A stretch of 47,083 nt of DNA from Candidatus Pacearchaeota archaeon (GTDB lineage Archaea > Nanobdellota > Nanobdellia > Pacearchaeales > GW2011-AR1). Shown here piece by piece: positions 1,774 to 29,203 of the stretch. The notes below the pieces were generated by a model. It saw only the letters and a list, made by a program, of their open reading frames with translations. It ran no database searches and had not been told where the DNA came from. Numbering within the stretch: position 1 is the first letter of the stretch; each line of letters begins with the position of its first letter. The position numbers and the translations under genes were made by a program. The stretch is from contig JAGLYK010000006.1 in NCBI GenBank assembly GCA_023132255.1, forward strand, positions 1 through 47,083, in the 5' to 3' direction.

Positions 1774-4068
1774 TTACCCCAGATAGCTGGTTGCAACAGG
1801 AACAGCTGCCTTGGCAGATTTCAAAAAACTCTCTTCAACTTTCTTGTAAACATCCATTGTTGCTTTAGTCACACTTGGCTTAATTTTCTTTAATGCCTCT
1901 TCAAAATGTTTTTTATTTACCTCTTTGGAATCAATAGATTCTCTCAACGCAAGCATAGCTGCCTCACGAACAAGTGCTTCCAAGTCAGCACCTGTAAAAC
2001 CAACTGTTTTCCTGGCAATTTCCTTAATCTTAACATTTTTAGTCAAAGGCATGTTCTTAGTATGAATCTCTAAAATCATTTTTCTGCCTTCTTCTTCAGG
2101 AGCATTCACCAGCAAAATCCTGTCAAATCTGCCAGGTCTCAACAAAGCAGGGTCAAGCATGTCAGGACGGTTAGTTGCTCCAATAATAAGAATATCATTT
2201 AAATCTTCCAAACCATCTATTTCTGCAAGCATTTGATTTAAAACTCTTTCAGTAACTTTTGTTCCTGTTTCTGCTCCTCTTCGTCCAGCCAAAGAATCAA
2301 TCTCGTCAAAAAACACAACACACGGCGCAACCTGCCGAGCTCTCTCAAAAATCTTTCTCATGCCTTCTTCAGATTTACCAACCCACATGCTCAACAACGA
2401 CGGTCCTTTAACCTGAATAAAATTCGCCTCTGATTCTTTTGCAACTGCCTTTGCCAAAAGTGTCTTCCCTGTTCCAGGCGGCCCAAAAAGTAAAATACCT
2501 CTTGAAGGTCTAATCCCCATTCTCTTAAAACTATCAGGATATTTCATTGGCCATTCAACTGCTTCTTTTAACTCTCCTTTCACATTATCCAAGCCTCCAA
2601 CATCATCCCAATCAATATTCGGTGTCTCAACCAAAACCTCTCTCATTGCCGACGGCCGAACAACCCTAAGAGCATCTGTAAAATCATCTTTGGTCACAAC
2701 CAATTTGGACAAGACTTCTGGAGGAATCTGCTCTTCGCTATCAAGTTTCAACTTAGGAAGAAACTTTCTCAAGACACTCATAGCAGCTTCTTTTGACAAT
2801 GCTTCCAAATCAGCCCCGACAAAACCATGTGTAATAGAAGATATTTCATCTAGTTTAACGTCTTTAGTTAAAGGCATCCCCCGAGTATGAATTTTCAAAA
2901 CAGCGAGCCTCCCCTTTTTATCCGGAACATTAATTATAATTTCCCTGTCAAACCTGCCTGGCCGCCTTAATGCGGAGTCAAGAGCATTAACCCTGTTTGT
3001 CGCTCCAATAACCACAACATTGCCCCTTGACTTCAAACCATCCATCATTGTCAAAATTTGCGACACAACTCTTCTTTCAACCTCGCCGCCAACATCCTCT
3101 CTCTTCGGAGCAATCGCGTCTATCTCGTCAATAAAAATAATTGAAGGTGCGTTTTTCTCTGCCTCTTCAAAAATATCCCTGATTTTTTTCTCTGATTCTC
3201 CATAAAACTTTGACATAATTTCCGGACCGTTCAATAAAATAAAATGCGCCTCAGATTCATTCGCAACTGCCTTTGCCAAAAGTGTCTTCCCTGTTCCGGG
3301 CGGTCCGTGCAACAAAACACCCTTCGGCGGTGCAATTCCCAACTTCTGAAAAATTTCAGGATGCTTTATTGGAAGTTCAACCATTTCACGAATTTTCTTA
3401 ATCTCCTCTGAAAGCCCACCAATATCTTCATAATTAATTTCAGGTACACTATCTTCGCTAATTTCAACTGCCTTGGGATTCAAAATAACTTCTGTGTTCT
3501 CTGTGATGATAACCGGTTGATTAGGATTAGTTGACACAACCAAAAACTTAATCTGCGCAACACCCCCCCCTAAATTTCCAAAACCTAAATTCCCTAACAT
3601 GCCTCCAAGCATGTCGTTAAAGTCACCAAAATCATCTGACAATAAATCCTGTCTTCTTTGCACGCCTCCCAAAACAACAAGATCTCCTTTTAAAGTCGCC
3701 CGCCCCAAAAGTCCTCTTCTCAAACTTTCAGGATCTCCCTGAACCATAATTCCTTTCTGAGCAGGCGCAATCGTAACTTTTTTTGCCTCTTTAATATCGA
3801 CCTTGGAAACCTCAACAACATCTCCCAAACTTGTTTTTGCATTTCTTCTAAGAATACCATCAATCCTGATAATGCCCTCGCCAACATCAGCAGGATATGC
3901 CCTGTCAGCAATCGCAACAGTCGCACGATTACCATTAATTATAATCACATCCCCTCGCTGAACCCCTAACTCTTTCATTAACTCATAATCCAGCCGAGCA
4001 ATACCTTTGTAAACATCGTCCTGCTGAGCCTCAACAACTTTCAATTGAATTTTCTTTTTTTCTGCCAT
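1774..4068 (-). CDS. cdc48: CDC48/VCP-family AAA+ ATPase
   Basis: N-domain plus two AAA modules (GPPGTGKT twice, FIDEID/FFDEID, RPGRFDR). Confidence 0.97.
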
Positions 4069-5877: not shown

Positions 5878-6186
5878 ATGCAATTCTGTCCAAAGTGCGG
5901 CACAATTCTCATGCAAAAGAGAAAGAATTTCGGATGCCCGAGATGTAATTATTCTACTAAAGAAAAAATAAAAATAATTTCTTCTGAAAAAATAGACGAG
6001 AGAAAAGAAGTTGCAGTGATTAGGGAAAAAGACATTGATGTCAGACCAATCACAACAGAAAAATGCGTGAAGTGCCCAAATGATAAGGCATATTTCTGGA
6101 CTGTTCAGGCACGGGCAGCAGATGAAGCAGAAACAAAATTCTTTCAGTGCACAAAATGCGGGCACACTATTAAGGACACTACTTAA
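5878..6186 (+). CDS. tfs: Transcription factor S
   Basis: FCPKCG N-terminal ribbon; QARAADEAETKFFQCTKCGH C-terminal ribbon with acidic DE hairpin. Confidence 0.9.
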   Translation: MQFCPKCGTILMQKRKNFGCPRCNYSTKEKIKIISSEKIDERKEVAVIREKDIDVRPITTEKCVKCPNDKAYFWTVQARAADEAETKFFQCTKCGHTIKDTT

Positions 6187-6509
6187 GAATCTTTTCCGAC
6201 TCTTTCTGAAAACCCACACTTACCGCATTTAACTAAAAATAAATTATCTTCGTCAGAATAAGAAATTCCTAAATCTAAAACTTGTGCTTTGTCATAACCA
6301 CACTTTGAACATTTATGTTCATAAGTCGCAAAAATATTTTCGTCTTTAGAAATACCTTTTCCAACTTTTTCTTTTTTAGGAATATTTTCACGCGAAGTTA
6401 AATCTGTGTTTGACTCAAAACCGCACTTAGAACATTTCAAGAAAACTTCCCCATTTTTTTTCTGGGGGCTTAGTAAAGTTTTACATTTCTGGCAAAACTT
6501 TAATGTCAT
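6183..6509 (-). CDS. TFS/RpoM-like paralogue (two Zn ribbons)
   Basis: FCQKC...CSKCG and CSKCG...SYSDED...CGKCG. Confidence 0.75.
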   Translation of the reverse strand: MTLKFCQKCKTLLSPQKKNGEVFLKCSKCGFESNTDLTSRENIPKKEKVGKGISKDENIFATYEHKCSKCGYDKAQVLDLGISYSDEDNLFLVKCGKCGFSERVGKDS

Positions 6510-6556
6510 TGTTTTTCTAAAAAGAGATAATTTAAAAAAGTTTCTATAATTATTAA

Positions 6557-6873
6557 TGGCCCTGGAGGGATTTCTTTATCTCCCGACTTCACACGGGTTA
6601 TTTATTTTAAATTTACTCCCTACCACGAAATCGCTCGACCCCCGAGATTAAATCTATTTGAATTTACCTGACTTGAAATCCAAAAGAATAAAAGGGATTT
6701 GCAATCCCTTATATGGCCCTGGAGGGATTTCTTGCTCCCACACGCACTTGTTTATAACATTCGCTTTGCTCACAAATACATGCAAGTGCGAATGCTCGAC
6801 CCCCGAGAACTAAATATTAAAATTTACCTGACTTGAAATCCAAGAATTAAATGCTATCTGGCGATAGCATAAA
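6557..6873 (-). repeat. Two tandem tRNA-derived repeat units (157 and 160 bp)
   Basis: TGGCCCTGGAGGGATTT at 6557, 6714 and 6874 (tRNA 3' end); shared blocks GCTCGACCCCCGAGA and AATTTACCTGACTTGAAATCCAA; variable hairpins between blocks. Confidence 0.92.
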
Positions 6874-6948
6874 TGGCCCTGGAGGGATTTGAACCCCCGA
6901 CACCTAGATTAAGAGTCTAGTGCTCTAACCAAGCTGAGCTACAGAGCC
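6874..6948 (-). tRNA. tRNA-Lys (CUU)
   Basis: Acceptor GGCTCTG/CAGGGCC-A; anticodon arm CTAGA-CT CTT AA-TCTAG; T arm GGGGG-TTCAAAT-CCCTC; no encoded CCA. Confidence 0.95.
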
Positions 6949-6983
6949 ATAAATACTTAATCAAAATTAACTTTAAATATTTT

Positions 6984-8576
6984 TCATAAACCTTTTCTTT
7001 TCAAAGCAGCTTCAACTAAACCTTTAAACAAAGGAGCAGGTTTTAACAAACTACTTTTTAATTCAGGGTGTGCCTGGGTTGCAGCAAAATAAAGGTGCTC
7101 GTTTTTTGGCAATTCAATAAACTCTACAAGTTTTCCATCAGGGGACATTCCCGAAAAAATCATTCCCTTCTCCTGAAGAATTTCGTGATACTCTGGATTA
7201 ACTTCATATCTATGCCTGTGTCGTTCTGAAATTTCTTTAAAACCATATAAAGAATGCACCAATGAATCTTCTTTAATAATTGCGGGATAAGCACCAAGCC
7301 GCATTGTCCCACCTTTATTTATAATATTCTTCTGCTCTTCTAAAATTGTGATTACTGGATTAGAGCAATCTTTAACAATTTCTGTAGTGTTTGCTCCCTC
7401 TAAACCGCAAACATTTCTTGCAAATTCAATTACTGCCAACTGCAATCCCAGGCAAATTCCTAAAAAAGGGATTTTGTTTTCCCTGCAATGCTGGATAATT
7501 TTTATCTTGCCTTCTATCCCTCTTGAACCAAATCCCCCAGGAACAATAACTCCGGAAACTTTTTCCAAATCAAAATGATTTTCTTCTGTGTTAATCCATT
7601 TAATATTAATTTTAGTTGAAAAATGAGCCATGCAGTGCTTCAATGCTTCAACAATACTTGCATAAGAATCCTCAAGAGATGTATACTTTCCTGCAATTGC
7701 AATAGTTATTTCCTTATCTGCATTCTCGCGATTTCTGATAAATTCTTTCCATTTTTCCAAATTAGGATGCACTGCCAAATTTAATTTCCTGGCTAATAAT
7801 TGAGACAAACCCTGCTCTTCAAAAACAAGAGGAATTTTGTAAACATCATCCACATCAATTCCGGTAATTATTTCTTCTTCAATAAGATTACTTGTTGCAG
7901 CAATTTTTCTTTTTATATTAGGGCTTAACAGCTCACTGCATCTGGCAATAATAATATTTGGCTCAATCCCTTTCTGCCTTAATAATCCAAGACTTTGTTG
8001 AGTTGGTTTTGATTTTTGCTCGTCAACTCCTGAGGGAATTGGAACATAGGTTAAATGCACAAATAAAATATTATCTTTCCCGACATCTCTCCTGAGAGAC
8101 CTGACAGCATCAATATAAAGTTCATTTTCCATATCTCCGATTGTTCCTCCGATTTCTATTAACATAATGTCTGCTTTGTTTTCCTCGCCAATGCGGACAA
8201 AATAATTTTTAATAAAATCAGAAACATGGGGAATCATCTGAACAGTCTGCCCTAAATAATCTCCTCGTCTTTCTTTTTCTCTGACTTCCTTGAACACTTT
8301 TCCCATGGTTAAATTCCAGTCAGATTTACAACTCACTCCTAAATATCTTTCATAATGCCCGAAATCCATGTCCACTTCTCCCCCGTCATCTAAAACAAAA
8401 ACCTCTCCGTGTTCTATAGGGTTCATTGTTCCGGGGTCAACATTGAGGTATCCATCGCATTTGATTGGGACGACTTTGTATTTTGATGCGAGAAGACTTC
8501 CGATGCTTGCGATTGCAATACCCTTGCCAAGACCGCTCAAAACACCGCCGGTAATTACAATATATTTCCTCTTCAT
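6984..8576 (-). CDS. pyrG: CTP synthase
   Basis: GGVLSGLGKG, DGYLNVDPGTM, KSKPTQ, GICLG, RHRHRYE, HPE. Confidence 0.97.
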   Translation of the reverse strand: MKRKYIVITGGVLSGLGKGIAIASIGSLLASKYKVVPIKCDGYLNVDPGTMNPIEHGEVFVLDDGGEVDMDFGHYERYLGVSCKSDWNLTMGKVFKEVREKERRGDYLGQTVQMIPHVSDFIKNYFVRIGEENKADIMLIEIGGTIGDMENELYIDAVRSLRRDVGKDNILFVHLTYVPIPSGVDEQKSKPTQQSLGLLRQKGIEPNIIIARCSELLSPNIKRKIAATSNLIEEEIITGIDVDDVYKIPLVFEEQGLSQLLARKLNLAVHPNLEKWKEFIRNRENADKEITIAIAGKYTSLEDSYASIVEALKHCMAHFSTKINIKWINTEENHFDLEKVSGVIVPGGFGSRGIEGKIKIIQHCRENKIPFLGICLGLQLAVIEFARNVCGLEGANTTEIVKDCSNPVITILEEQKNIINKGGTMRLGAYPAIIKEDSLVHSLYGFKEISERHRHRYEVNPEYHEILQEKGMIFSGMSPDGKLVEFIELPKNEHLYFAATQAHPELKSSLLKPAPLFKGLVEAALKRKGL

Positions 8577-29020: not shown

Positions 29021-29203
29021 ATGGTAATTAAAAGAAAAACCTTAAATGCCTTTCATGCGACTTCCATGAGTGTTATAAAAAGTCGCACACCTGAACAAAA
29101 AGAGAAGGTTAAGCCGAGCGATTTCGTGGTAGGGACAAATGAAAATAAATCCCCCGTGCGAAGTCGGGAGTTAAGGAAACCGCAGGTGTCCTCGCATGGA
29201 TAA
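29021..29203 (+). CDS. Small upstream ORF carrying a copy of the tRNA-repeat hairpin cargo
   Basis: ATG ~22 nt after AATATATAA; overlaps next ATG; codons PSDFVV...RELR coincide with the repeat at 29115-29179. Confidence 0.45.
   Translation: MVIKRKTLNAFHATSMSVIKSRTPEQKEKVKPSDFVVGTNENKSPVRSRELRKPQVSSHG
29115..29179 (+). repeat. Dispersed copy of the hairpin cargo of the tRNA-linked unit (reverse complement of 6571-6637)
   Basis: First 21 nt identical (CGAGCGATTTCGTGGTAGGGA), then AAAATAAAT..CCCGTG.GAAGTCGGGAG.TAA.GAAA. Confidence 0.88.

What the first reader, a model, noticed from the sequence alone, without database searches (positions are those of the whole stretch)
6557..6948. tRNA-Lys followed by tandem tRNA-derived units with variable hairpin cargo in the T-loop
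Seen (tRNA sense, minus strand): each unit is a variable perfect hairpin (ATGCTATC/GATAGCAT vs AAGGGATT/AATCCCTT), an invariant 23-mer TTGGATTTCAAGTCAGGTAAATT loosely resembling the tRNA 5' end, an AT-rich remnant, TCTCGGGGGTCGAGC, a ~55-nt variable long hairpin, then GGAG..AAGAAATCCCTCCAGGGCCA (exact tRNA 3' end). The T-stem GGGGG/CCCTC is retained but its loop holds unrelated stems framed by CGAG...GGAG. The pattern is constant blocks with variable structured spacers. Known: tRNA-linked repeats occur in enterobacteria and tRNA 3' ends are integration targets. Inference: a co-transcribed array that tRNA-processing enzymes could cut into ~158-nt RNAs, or a tRNA-targeted cassette-capturing array.
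Basis: partly seen in the sequence, partly recalled or inferred. Interest (0 to 1): 0.82.

Follow-up and report, generated by a model that had tools for sequence, protein, structure and literature searches.

The report
Hairpin insertion units behind tRNA-Lys
Behind a normal lysine tRNA gene of a tiny DPANN-type archaeon lie two gene-less 160-base insertion units, each ending in a leftover copy of the tRNA's tail that is split by a small, mobile, hairpin-forming repeat; many tRNA genes in this group carry the same kind of unit and I found no description of it.

Summary
tRNA-Lys(CTT) (6874-6948, minus) is followed by two units of 160 and 157 nt. They share a 29-mer, a 15-mer and the tRNA's last 17 nt, and differ in a small hairpin and a 58-64-nt "cargo".

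The units are not tRNA-like RNAs. They have no supported acceptor stem, and the 23-mer resembles the tRNA 5' end no better than shuffles do.

The cargoes are two related members of a dispersed hairpin-module family bounded by CGAGC...GGGAG. This 625-kb genome holds 16 copies. The fold is backed by covariation and exists on one strand only. Two orthologous filled/empty sites show insertion without target duplication.

The tRNA-derived parts are DNA-level duplicates of the T-arm-to-3'-end segment. At least nine tRNA genes here, and several in relatives, carry similar units. The same unit type follows tRNA-Thr in three genera, where it is 81% conserved against 50-59% at third codon positions.

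Best reading (0.5): successive insertions of miniature non-coding elements at the tRNA T-loop/3' end, probably carried along in the tRNA trailer. A working trailer sRNA is not excluded. My literature searches found no description. Earlier notes of this scan report similar arrangements on other DPANN and Patescibacteria DNA.

The parts
6874..6948 (-). tRNA-Lys(CTT), intact, no intron
   Evidence: ARAGORN; Rfam RF00005 70.1 bits, E 1.1e-14
6714..6873 (-). Unit 1 (160 nt): hairpin, spacer, T-stem 5' copy, cargo-1 module, tRNA 3'-end copy
   Evidence: Sequence; repeats D1-D3; 88% copy behind tRNA-Thr on G000:C2; 92% copy in G002
6851..6870 (-). Left-end hairpin 1 (8-bp stem, 4-nt loop), 3 nt after the tRNA end
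   Evidence: MFE fold; compensatory A-T to G-C change in G002. The same hairpin follows tRNA-Thr in G000, G001, G017 and G180.
6821..6843 (-). Invariant 23-mer of unit 1 (spacer block, core AAGTCAGGTAAATT)
   Evidence: D2; also in the Thr units of G000:C2 and G180; no significant likeness to the tRNA 5' half
6794..6808 (-). 15-mer: copy of the T-stem 5' strand plus the start of the module
   Evidence: D3, 100%. The T-stem copy follows the local tRNA in the informative case G180 (GGGAG in both tRNA and unit).
6735..6798 (-). Cargo-1 module (64 nt, CGAGC...GGGAG)
   Evidence: 7 distinct copies aligned, mean column identity 92%; consensus fold with an 8-bp helix and G.U-only changes; also in a non-tRNA cassette loop in G002:C38
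6714..6730 (-). Displaced copy of the tRNA-Lys T-loop end, T-stem 3' strand, acceptor 3' strand and discriminator (unit 1)
   Evidence: Exact 17-nt match to 6874-6890
6557..6713 (-). Unit 2 (157 nt): same plan, different hairpin, module A as cargo
   Evidence: not present in G002, which has one unit
6692..6710 (-). Left-end hairpin 2; its arms are a direct and an inverted copy of the T-stem 3' region (AATCCCT)
   Evidence: (I9)
6661..6683 (-). Invariant 23-mer of unit 2
   Evidence: D2
6580..6637 (-). Module A (58 nt), best-scoring G000 member of covariance model R1
   Evidence: 81.5 bits; 14 R1 hits in G000; structure counts
6557..6573 (-). Displaced copy of the tRNA-Lys 3' end (unit 2)
   Evidence: Exact 17-nt match
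6534..6539 (-). First T-run of 5 or more after the tRNA (T6), 18 nt past unit 2; it overlaps the box-A-like stretch in front of the TFS gene
29115..29170 (+). Another module A copy in the same window, inside a gene-start cassette
   Evidence: 77.5 bits

Best explanation
The array is a normal tRNA-Lys gene followed by two tandem, gene-less insertion units. Each unit has four parts. (i) A short hairpin sits 3 nt after a tRNA or tRNA-like 3' end. (ii) A conserved spacer follows. (iii) Next comes a displaced DNA duplicate of the tRNA's own T-arm-to-3'-end segment; it runs one base past the discriminator and carries no CCA. (iv) That duplicate is split in its T-loop by one copy of a 58-64-nt structured module bounded by CGAGC...GGGAG.

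The 'cargo' is therefore not a payload of a tRNA-like RNA. It is a member of a dispersed, strand-specific hairpin repeat that inserts as a discrete block without target duplication. The tRNA-derived pieces are by-products of small elements recombining into the T-loop/3'-end core of tRNA genes. Such an event is tolerated because one intact tRNA copy is regenerated. Two units here reflect two successive insertions, or one insertion followed by unit duplication and module exchange.

Shown: the anatomy; the family membership of both cargoes; the strand-specific fold; TSD-less insertion at two orthologous sites; presence/absence differences between congeners; tracking of the local tRNA by the 3' copy; and recurrence at many tRNAs.

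Inferred: the order of events; the enzyme (candidates are the single intact IS200-type Y1 transposase acting on single-stranded hairpins, or a tyrosine recombinase of which only a 46-aa stub is assembled); and passive co-transcription of the array as the tRNA's 3' trailer.
For: Family membership. Unit 2's cargo matches 8 other places in the genome by BLAST. Covariance model R1 finds 14 copies in G000, 13 in G001, 21 in G002, 4 in G003, 5 in G008, 2 in G011 and 1 in G017, that is 7 of 41 genomes. Cargo-1 has 7 distinct copies among the loci fetched.

Fold. 94.6% of 574 cells are paired. 8 of 13 pairs change on both sides. 0 of 500 shuffles reach any of the five measures, and slid controls pair at 31-57%. 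About 28% of helix-2 cells are G.U, which would be A.C on the other strand.

Discrete insertion without TSD. G002:C37 compared with G000:C39, and G002:C12 compared with G000:C17, differ by exactly CGAGC...GGGAG(T).

Contexts of the 16 G000 copies. 10 lie in T-arm/acceptor duplicates beside tRNA genes (8 sense, 2 antisense). 6 lie in gene-start cassettes or directly before a start codon.

DNA-level duplication. The repeat includes 1-21 nt beyond the discriminator and never CCA. The 3' copy matches tRNA-Thr at Thr loci and tRNA-Lys at Lys loci, and in G180 both T-stem strands follow the tRNA.

Enrichment. 3 of 22 tRNAs have 3' duplicates and 2 of 22 have 5' duplicates, against 0.035 and 0.065 expected. 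Of 22 tRNA-Lys loci in relatives, 4 have 3' duplicates and 5 have 5' duplicates.

Variable spot. G002 has one unit and its tRNA-plus-unit block is inverted relative to TFS. G003 has a different element on each side of an intron-bearing tRNA-Lys. The remaining loci show no duplicate by that test.

Core extent. A T-arm-to-3'-end core is the extent of a known T-loop-class attP core (26 nt in phage Ms6; PMC1762012, abstract and passages read).

Enzyme candidate. An intact IS200-family TnpA is present. All 5 genomes with 4 or more modules carry a Y1_Tnp match.
Against: At the orthologous tRNA-Thr locus the unit is far better conserved than neutral sites. Cargo is 81% identical and spacer 81% (G000 vs G180), against 50-59% at third codon positions of the neighbouring gene. 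This speaks for a selected function rather than pure selfish DNA.

No recombinase is tied to the units. The tyrosine-recombinase hit is a 46-aa stub. The TnpA gene's flanks do not resemble the modules. TnpA also occurs in 10 of 34 genomes without modules and is missing from 2 of 7 with them. Two of the five Y1 matches in module-rich genomes carry an in-frame stop (G001 1 TAA, G003 1 TGA), and four of those five genomes are one genus.

The module splits the T-arm copy at different positions (after 54, 58 or 61), and no conserved target word flanks it. A classical attR would not be interrupted in its core. I saw no free or circular form and no transcription data. The two-unit state is seen in one assembly only.
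Confidence: 0.5

Rival explanations
1. The units are working small RNAs. They are transcribed with the tRNA as a polycistron, their 5' ends are made by RNase Z cutting at the tRNA 3' end, and the conserved hairpins (with tandem G.A motifs) are protein-binding or regulatory RNA modules. The tRNA-like tail is kept for processing or stability.
For: The units are on the same strand as the tRNA and start 1 nt after it. The longest T-run inside them is 4, and the first T6 lies 18 nt after unit 2. The fold exists only on the sense strand. Cargo and spacer are 81% conserved across genera against 50-59% at third codon positions. Long retention occurs although the flanking direct repeats would allow easy deletion. 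Dicistronic tRNA-sRNA precursors cut by RNase Z, and mobile sRNA genes, are reported for the DPANN archaeon Nanoarchaeum equitans (PMC3491384, abstract, passages and section 10 read).
Against: There is no acceptor stem to define each unit's 3' end. No C/D or H/ACA boxes were seen by eye, and nothing reaches Rfam's gathering score. Modules are present or absent at orthologous sites of congeners. 2 of 10 tRNA-linked copies are antisense. At tRNA-Glu(CTC) a T6 run lies between the tRNA and its unit. T-runs are a poor guide here anyway: only 6 of 22 tRNAs have a T-run of 5 or more within 20 nt. No expression data exist.
Confidence: 0.27
2. The units are decayed scars (attR-type junctions) of full-size viruses, plasmids or islands. 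These integrated at the tRNA T-loop by a tyrosine integrase and were later almost wholly deleted. The hairpin modules invaded the dead DNA afterwards.
For: The direct repeat runs from the T-arm to just past the tRNA end, as in T-loop-class sites. Tandem copies lie at one tRNA. The locus is a synteny breakpoint between congeners. An integrase remnant exists in the genome. Partial tRNA copies from integrated elements are well known in archaea (PMC9897764, passages read).
Against: The same ~140-nt content recurs at orthologous Thr loci of three genera and at tRNA-Lys. Independent decay would not give this result. The unit is conserved above neutral. No gene remnants lie between the repeats. 5'-end duplicates of only 13 nt also occur, which integrases do not explain.
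Confidence: 0.12
3. Each unit is part of a disrupted tRNA: a T-loop intron or a split-tRNA 3' half that is spliced or trans-spliced into a working tRNA-Lys.
For: Archaea, DPANN included, have non-canonical introns and split tRNAs. ARAGORN finds only 22 tRNAs here and misses at least three real ones.
Against: An intact intron-less tRNA-Lys(CTT) sits next door. Removing the module leaves T-loops of 9 and 11 nt. There is no 5' acceptor strand, D-arm or anticodon arm. The same modules lie in mRNA leaders and at non-RNA-gene sites.
Confidence: 0.03
4. An integron-like system: folded single-stranded hairpins (modules acting as attC analogues) recombine at the T-arm hairpin (acting as an attI analogue), building an array.
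For: Module size (55-64 nt, up to 93), conserved ends with a variable middle, a strand-specific imperfect hairpin, and array growth next to a fixed site.
Against: There are no ORF cassettes. No intact tyrosine recombinase is assembled. Modules also insert far from tRNAs. The insertion point in the T-arm varies.
Confidence: 0.04

Closest known systems
T-loop-class tRNA attachment sites of tyrosine integrases, with tandem accretion of elements at one tRNA gene (for example mycobacteriophage Ms6; PMC1762012, abstract and passages read). The sublocation scheme of Williams 2002 is recalled and appears in a reference list only; the paper is not held.
   Same: The duplicated segment runs from the T-arm to just beyond the tRNA 3' end. 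An intact tRNA is regenerated. Several copies stack behind one tRNA. The site varies between close relatives.
   Different: The 'element' is ~140 nt with no gene. The displaced core is interrupted by a repeat module. No integrase is linked. 5'-end duplicates also occur. The unit is conserved across genera.
REP/REPIN elements with RAYT, and IS200/IS605-derived miniature hairpin elements (PMC3733652, abstract and passages read; PMC3116915, search listing and start of abstract only)
   Same: Short imperfect hairpins in many copies, with structure kept by compensatory change and a single-strand-specific fold. No target duplication. A Y1 HUH transposase gene is in the genome. Copy number differs sharply between relatives.
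   Different: I found no GTAG or CGTC tag at the element end. The transposase scores as plain IS200 (85.4 bits) and not as RAYT (39.5 bits, cut-off 80), and it is not flanked by the modules. The preferred niches are tRNA T-arm copies and gene-start leaders. The host is an archaeon.
Dicistronic tRNA-sRNA genes and mobile C/D box sRNAs of Nanoarchaeum equitans (PMC3491384, abstract, passages and section 10 read)
   Same: A structured non-coding unit lies immediately downstream of a tRNA on the same strand in a DPANN archaeon. RNase Z would free its 5' end. The sRNA genes behave as mobile units.
   Different: I recognised no C/D or H/ACA boxes. The units end in a copy of the tRNA tail. Expression is unknown.
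Rickettsia palindromic elements
   Same: Tiny hairpin repeats spreading through a reduced genome of a host-dependent microbe.
   Different: RPEs are known for in-frame insertion in protein genes. The modules here were seen only in non-coding RNA-flanking positions.

Membership tests
tRNA-like RNA (acceptor/T-arm minihelix) cut by RNase Z or RNase P | A 5' strand that pairs with the 3' acceptor strand | tested here: not met
   The best contiguous stems between the unit's 5' region and its 3' end are 5-7 bp, reached by 35-650 of 1000 shuffles in 7 units. ARAGORN and Rfam call only the real tRNA.
tRNA-like RNA (acceptor/T-arm minihelix) cut by RNase Z or RNase P | T-arm with a 7-nt T-loop | tested here: not met
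   The loop holds a 58-64-nt module. Without it the loop would be 9 nt (unit 1) or 11 nt (unit 2).
Archaeal BHB intron or split tRNA | Bulge-helix-bulge motif at the exon-intron borders | tested here: inconclusive
   My strict BHB scan gave 13 hits in the array against 8.6 per random window of the same length. It did not recover the ARAGORN-predicted introns of 8 control tRNAs at their predicted sites. By eye the module base is a symmetric 3x3 loop, not offset bulges.
Archaeal BHB intron or split tRNA | Removal restores a complete tRNA | tested here: not met
   No D-arm, anticodon arm or 5' acceptor strand. The restored loop is not canonical.
Integrase attL/attR junction (T-loop class) | Direct repeat from the T-arm to just past the tRNA 3' end, with an intact tRNA on one side | tested here: met
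   core extent compared with the Ms6 26-nt core.
Integrase attL/attR junction (T-loop class) | An integrase-bearing element between the repeats | tested here: not met
   ~140 nt with no ORF. The only PF00589 match in the 78%-complete assembly is a 46-aa stub on another contig.
REP/RAYT or IS200/IS605-type miniature hairpin element (the module) | Multi-copy imperfect hairpin whose structure is conserved on one strand | tested here: met
REP/RAYT or IS200/IS605-type miniature hairpin element (the module) | Insertion without target-site duplication | tested here: met
   Two clean filled/empty orthologous pairs and one near-clean pair.
REP/RAYT or IS200/IS605-type miniature hairpin element (the module) | Cognate Y1 HUH transposase, flanked by or cleaving the repeat | tested here: inconclusive
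   An intact IS200-family TnpA is present, but its flanks lack the module. Co-occurrence is 5 of 7 module-bearing genomes against 10 of 34 without modules; four of the five are one genus and two carry an in-frame stop. Cleavage is not testable here.
REP/RAYT or IS200/IS605-type miniature hairpin element (the module) | Conserved GTAG or CGTC tag at one end, or a fixed target word | tested here: not met
   The ends are CGAGC and GGGAG. The 5' flanks of 46 copies show no common word.
Integron cassette array | IntI-type integrase with attI, and ORF-plus-attC cassettes | tested here: not met
   No ORFs in the units. No intact tyrosine recombinase found.
C/D or H/ACA box sRNA fused to a tRNA | Box motifs or a match to known models | tested here: not met
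   No Rfam match at E<=10 covers the units apart from chance-level miRNA and sRNA rows below gathering score. No RUGAUGA or CUGA boxes seen by eye.
C/D or H/ACA box sRNA fused to a tRNA | Stable processed transcript | not testable with these tools
   No RNA data available.

The most novel reading that the evidence does not exclude
The modules could be a previously unknown class of mobile, structured RNA 'handles'. They are hairpins with two tandem G.A motifs separated by a 9-bp helix, a layout that recalls the two K-turn-type sites of box C/D RNAs. Ultra-small archaea would attach them to the ends of transcription units: tRNA trailers, and tRNA and mRNA leaders. T-arm mimicry would be used for docking, and the modules would have been kept for a host function such as protein recruitment, processing or protection of transcripts. 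The tRNA-Thr unit conserved across three genera would be the domesticated prototype.
Probability: 0.15. Interest if true: 0.85.

Novelty: new variant of a known kind. Interest (0 to 1): 0.6.

Why it matters
If the reading holds, the tRNA genes of these reduced episymbiont genomes are landing pads for a family of gene-less mini-elements. Those elements mark points where gene order differs between close relatives, and they add structured RNA to tRNA trailers and gene leaders. This bears on three questions: how mobile DNA survives in 0.6-Mb genomes, why tRNA finders undercount tRNAs in DPANN assemblies, and whether such repeats have been co-opted. The across-genera conservation of the tRNA-Thr unit makes a function testable with ordinary small-RNA sequencing. 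Earlier notes of this scan report look-alike arrangements in other DPANN archaea and in Patescibacteria. The phenomenon may therefore be general to ultra-small symbionts of both domains.

Tried and rejected
1. Tandem Repeats Finder reports nothing over the units.
2. Rfam in E-value mode gives only the tRNA above threshold.
3. The BHB-intron scan was uninformative because its positive controls were not recovered and background is high.
4. 23-mer as a decayed tRNA 5' end: not above shuffles.
5. A closing or pseudo-acceptor helix between the unit's 5' block and 3' end: not above shuffles in 7 units. In G002 both changes in the 3' copy happen to keep a 7-bp pairing with TCTTGGA; I do not build on this.
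6. Single-sequence folds: z = -1.85 (unit 1) and -0.15 (unit 2), so not informative. The plus strand of both units together gave z = -3.1, driven by the same hairpins.
7. T-runs as a terminator test do not discriminate: only 6 of 22 tRNAs have a T-run of 5 or more within 20 nt.
8. The metagenome scan with a cargo-1 pattern gave 3 contigs, all the tRNA-Thr loci already seen in G017 and G001, so it added no new diversity.
9. Reverse transcriptase (PF00078): no match in the 78%-complete assembly. With no CCA in the copies, I dropped an origin from mature tRNA by reverse transcription.
10. K-turn reading of the module base: the tandem G.A / A.G / G.G layout fits an NC-stem, but there is no 3-nt bulge with an adjoining C-stem in the tRNA units. 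It remains a resemblance only (by eye).
11. G002:C13 as an 'empty/filled' pair for a whole tRNA-Glu unit turned out to be a rearranged locus, not a clean pair.
12. Literature searches for a prior description returned no paper describing such units. Supplementary files were not consulted.
Full report
WHAT IS THERE. The window comes from a 625-kb, 39-contig, 32% G+C genome that is 78% complete. It has archaeal housekeeping genes around the finding: CTP synthase at 6984-8576 and a TFS/RpoM-type zinc-ribbon protein at 6183-6509, both on the minus strand. Earlier notes of this scan call the organism a DPANN archaeon. I did not determine its taxonomy myself.

ARAGORN and Rfam agree on an intact, intron-less tRNA-Lys(CTT) at 6874-6948 on the minus strand. 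Reading that strand, two units follow head to tail: 6873->6714 (160 nt) and 6713->6557 (157 nt). Each unit has, in order:
- a perfect 8-bp hairpin starting 3 nt after the preceding tRNA or tRNA-like end;
- a block holding the invariant 23-mer;
- an AT-rich stretch;
- the 15-mer that copies the T-stem 5' strand;
- a 58-64-nt cargo;
- the last 17 nt of the tRNA plus one further base.

The repeat finder confirms the constant blocks: the 29-mer is 93% identical, the 15-mer 100%, and there are three copies of the 3' end at spacings of 157 and 160.

THE UNITS ARE NOT tRNA-LIKE RNAs. The 23-mer block is no more similar to the tRNA-Lys 5' half, or to any tRNA 5' half of the genome, than shuffled versions are: 362 and 354 of 500 shuffles score as well against tRNA-Lys, and 455 and 443 of 500 against the best of 21 tRNAs. 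No 5' strand pairs convincingly with the 3' acceptor copy; over 7 units the best stems of 5-7 bp are reached by 35-650 of 1000 shuffles. Taking the cargo out leaves T-loops of 9 and 11 nt. The copies never carry CCA, and they extend 1 nt (Lys), 3 nt (Thr, G000) or 21 nt (Thr, G017) beyond the discriminator. They are therefore duplicates of DNA or of a precursor, not of mature tRNA.

THE CARGO IS A DISPERSED REPEAT. Unit 2's cargo (module A) matched eight other places in the genome by BLAST. A covariance model built from 8 copies finds 14 copies in G000, 13, 21 and 4 in the three congeners G001-G003, 5 in G008, 2 in G011 and 1 in G017, and none in the other 34 of 41 relatives searched.

On 46 copies aligned to the model (45 distinct rows), 94.6% of 574 cells pair. 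8 of 13 pairs show changes on both sides. None of 500 column shuffles reaches the observed values, and slid structures pair at only 31-57%. The alignment is fitted to the model, which favours the structure. About 28% of the cells of the 9-bp helix are G.U, so the hairpin exists on the tRNA-sense strand only.

Unit 1's cargo (cargo-1) has the same termini (CGAGC ... GGGAG) and the same base: C-G, G.A, A.G, G.G, C-G. It has an 8-bp helix whose only changes are to G.U, and a small top hairpin with a second tandem G.A pair. Seven distinct copies are 92% identical on average. The two cargoes are thus sub-families of one kind of element, not unrelated stems.

THE MODULE INSERTS AS A BLOCK. Comparing G002 with G000 gave two clean orthologous filled/empty sites that differ by exactly CGAGC...GGGAG(T), with no target duplication: G002:C37 against G000:C39, and G002:C12 against G000:C17. 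A third near-clean site lies in the loop of a cassette hairpin. A larger cassette that carries a module is present in G000 but absent in G001 and G003, directly in front of one conserved gene.

WHERE THE MODULES SIT. Of the 16 G000 copies (14 model hits plus 2 cargo-1), 10 lie inside partial copies of a tRNA's T-arm/acceptor end next to that tRNA. Eight of these are in the tRNA's sense and two are antisense. The other six lie in a recurrent 'gene-start cassette' or directly before a start codon.

Units built like those of the window follow tRNA-Thr(TGT), Glu(CTC), Ser(UGA, two units), Gln(TTG), an unnamed tRNA on C7 and, less clearly, Gly and Cys. Each has a hairpin right after the tRNA, a spacer, a T-arm fragment, a module and an acceptor 3' copy that matches the local tRNA. 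tRNA-Gln(CTG) has two units with other contents. Three of these tRNAs were missed by ARAGORN.

The module splits the T-arm copy after position 54 (Lys, Thr), after 58, or after 61 (Glu, Ser, Gln). Stable hairpins right after the gene occur at unit-bearing tRNAs only, so they belong to the insert rather than to tRNA genes in general. In the whole genome 3 of 22 ARAGORN tRNAs have an 11-nt 3'-end copy downstream and 2 of 22 a 5'-end copy upstream, against 0.035 and 0.065 expected.

RELATIVES. The unit type of the window (hairpin 1, the AAGTCAGGTAAATT block, cargo-1) follows tRNA-Thr(TGT) in G000, G001, G017 and G180, which are three genera. It follows tRNA-Lys in G000 and G002. In a sample of 201 genomes of the family it was found in 3, G000 included. 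A pattern scan of public metagenome contigs gave 3 contigs, all of them the G017 and G001 Thr loci again.

The 3' copy and the remnant of the T-loop follow the local tRNA: Lys-like at Lys and Thr-like at Thr. In G180 both T-stem strands follow the tRNA's unusual GGGAG/CTCTC. Hairpin 1 shows a compensatory change in G002.

At the orthologous Thr locus the cargo is 81% identical in all three pairs of G000, G001 and G180, and the spacer is 81% identical between G000 and G180. The tRNA itself is 82-89% identical, and third codon positions of the adjacent conserved gene only 50-59%. Within G000 the Lys and Thr copies of cargo-1 differ at 3 of 63 positions. This points to recent copying inside the genus.

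THE LOCUS IS UNSTABLE. G002 has one unit, and its tRNA-plus-unit block is inverted relative to TFS and adjoins a different gene. G003, in the same genus, has a tRNA-Lys(CTT) with a 49-nt intron. A different 62-nt element there is flanked by a 13-nt duplicate of the tRNA 5' end, and a 52-nt element is flanked by an 18-nt duplicate of the 3' end. Of 22 tRNA-Lys loci from 22 relatives, 4 have a 3' duplicate and 5 a 5' duplicate by the 11-nt test. G002's copy, with two mismatches, is missed by that test. In G002 the unit behind tRNA-Glu(CTC) abuts the flank that in G000 follows tRNA-Glu(TTC).

ENZYMES. The assembly holds one intact Y1 HUH transposase of the IS200 type: 148 aa on G000:C18, NCBIfam IS200 85.4 bits, RAYT model 39.5 bits against a cut-off of 80. 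Its flanks carry other hairpins, not the modules. Y1_Tnp matches occur in 15 of 41 relatives, in 5 of the 7 genomes with modules, and in all 5 genomes with four or more copies. Two of those five (G001, G003) carry an in-frame stop, four of the five belong to one genus, and 10 of 34 genomes without modules have a match too. The only tyrosine-recombinase match is a 46-aa C-terminal stub. No reverse transcriptase was found. The assembly is 78% complete, so these absences are weak evidence.

HOW IT MOST LIKELY WORKS. Two things are superimposed.

First, small non-coding elements enter tRNA genes at the T-loop/3'-end core. They leave an intact gene plus a displaced copy of the segment from the T-arm to just past the gene end. 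This is the extent of the common core of a T-loop-class integrase site, 26 nt in phage Ms6 (PMC1762012). It is also what selection would let through for any insertion that duplicates a few dozen bases of target.

Second, the displaced T-arm copy carries a strand-specific hairpin module. The module is itself a discrete insertion unit that makes no target duplication. It is also found in hairpin loops of gene leaders and nested inside other modules.

Two units in the window then mean two rounds of insertion, or a unit duplication followed by module exchange. The mobiliser is unknown. A single-strand hairpin mechanism of the IS200/IS605 or REP-RAYT kind fits four observations: the strand-specific fold, the lack of target duplication, the patchy copy numbers and the presence of a TnpA gene (PMC3733652). 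It does not fit the lack of a tag or target word, nor the lack of modules around the TnpA gene.

The array has no T-run longer than 4, and the first T6 lies 18 nt past unit 2. The array is therefore probably transcribed as the tRNA's trailer, as with the tRNA-sRNA dicistrons of N. equitans (PMC3491384). That step is inferred.

WHAT SPEAKS AGAINST PURE SELFISH DNA. The Thr unit has been kept at one locus across three genera at tRNA-like conservation. This holds although recombination between its flanking repeats would delete it cleanly. I therefore give a working trailer RNA 0.27 and keep it compatible with a mobile origin.

NOVELTY. Six full-text searches found no description of gene-less units of this build or of this module family. 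The nearest published kinds are integrase att duplicates, REP/REPIN-type repeats and tRNA-sRNA dicistrons. Earlier AI notes of this scan describe similar tRNA-end duplicates split by hairpin repeats in other DPANN genomes and in Patescibacteria. I used them as leads and tested the shared claims on this genome only.

This window adds five points:
- the covariation-backed, one-strand fold of the module;
- the clean TSD-less insertion sites;
- the link between tRNA units and gene-start cassettes through the same modules;
- the above-neutral conservation of the Thr unit;
- the coincidence of the arrays with rearrangement points.

Noticed in passing
window 29030-29200 (+); also G000:C2:3031-3120, C17:5020-5190, C33, C34:20050-20250: A recurrent 'gene-start cassette' lies flush against start codons or tRNA 5' ends. 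It consists of a hairpin (GCGATTTC.../...GAAATCGC) and a tail with a second hairpin. The first hairpin shows two compensatory double changes in G002:C38. The loop and tail are common docking places for the same modules, and the loop flanks resemble the T-arm flanks of the Lys units.
   Followed up: partly
G000:C37:16990-17580 (minus strand): tRNA-Glu(CTC) has a 147-nt intron. Upstream lies a duplicate of its 5' half interrupted by an antisense module. Downstream lies a unit whose module splits the T-arm copy after position 61. A T6 run lies between the tRNA and that unit.
   Followed up: partly
L049 (G003:C1:20200-21000), L050-L053: tRNA-Lys(CTT) carries a 49-58-nt canonical intron in G003, G006, G007 and G023 but none in G000 and G002, although G003 is in the same genus. 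This is intron loss or gain between close relatives.
   Followed up: no
L010 (G002:C10:350-969) versus window 6183-6951: The tRNA-Lys-plus-unit block is inverted relative to the TFS gene in G002 and borders a different gene. In G002 the tRNA-Glu(CTC) unit borders the flank that follows tRNA-Glu(TTC) in G000. Rearrangement points coincide with tRNA-end copies.
   Followed up: partly
G000:C18:24362-24808 (L048:1438-1884): A single intact IS200-family Y1 transposase gene (148 aa) is preceded by two hairpins unrelated to the modules. Matches in G001 and G003 carry an in-frame stop.
   Followed up: partly
G000:C39:9377-9517 (L047:1459-1599, minus): A 46-aa ORF equals the C-terminal end of a tyrosine recombinase. 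It is the only PF00589 match in the assembly and is probably a gene remnant.
   Followed up: no
G000:C21:~3480-3560, C28:~2000-2080, C7:~47420-47500: Three apparent tRNA genes, Ser(UGA), Gln(TTG) and one unnamed, are not reported by ARAGORN. The 22 tRNAs it finds undercount the set.
   Followed up: no
G000:C7:30422-30514, C7:39865-39955, C34:20121-20208: Long variants of module A carry a nested ~34-nt insertion, itself a small hairpin bounded by CGAG...GGGA. So modules insert into modules.
   Followed up: no
G000:C19:1074-1153 and L049, L052: A second, GC-richer element family (core ...CCCACAGGGATGAC...) flanks tRNA-Lys(TTT) in G000 and G001 and tRNA-Lys(CTT) in G003, again with duplicates of the tRNA ends. 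It may be one of the GC-rich repeats that earlier notes describe inside protein genes of this genome.
   Followed up: no
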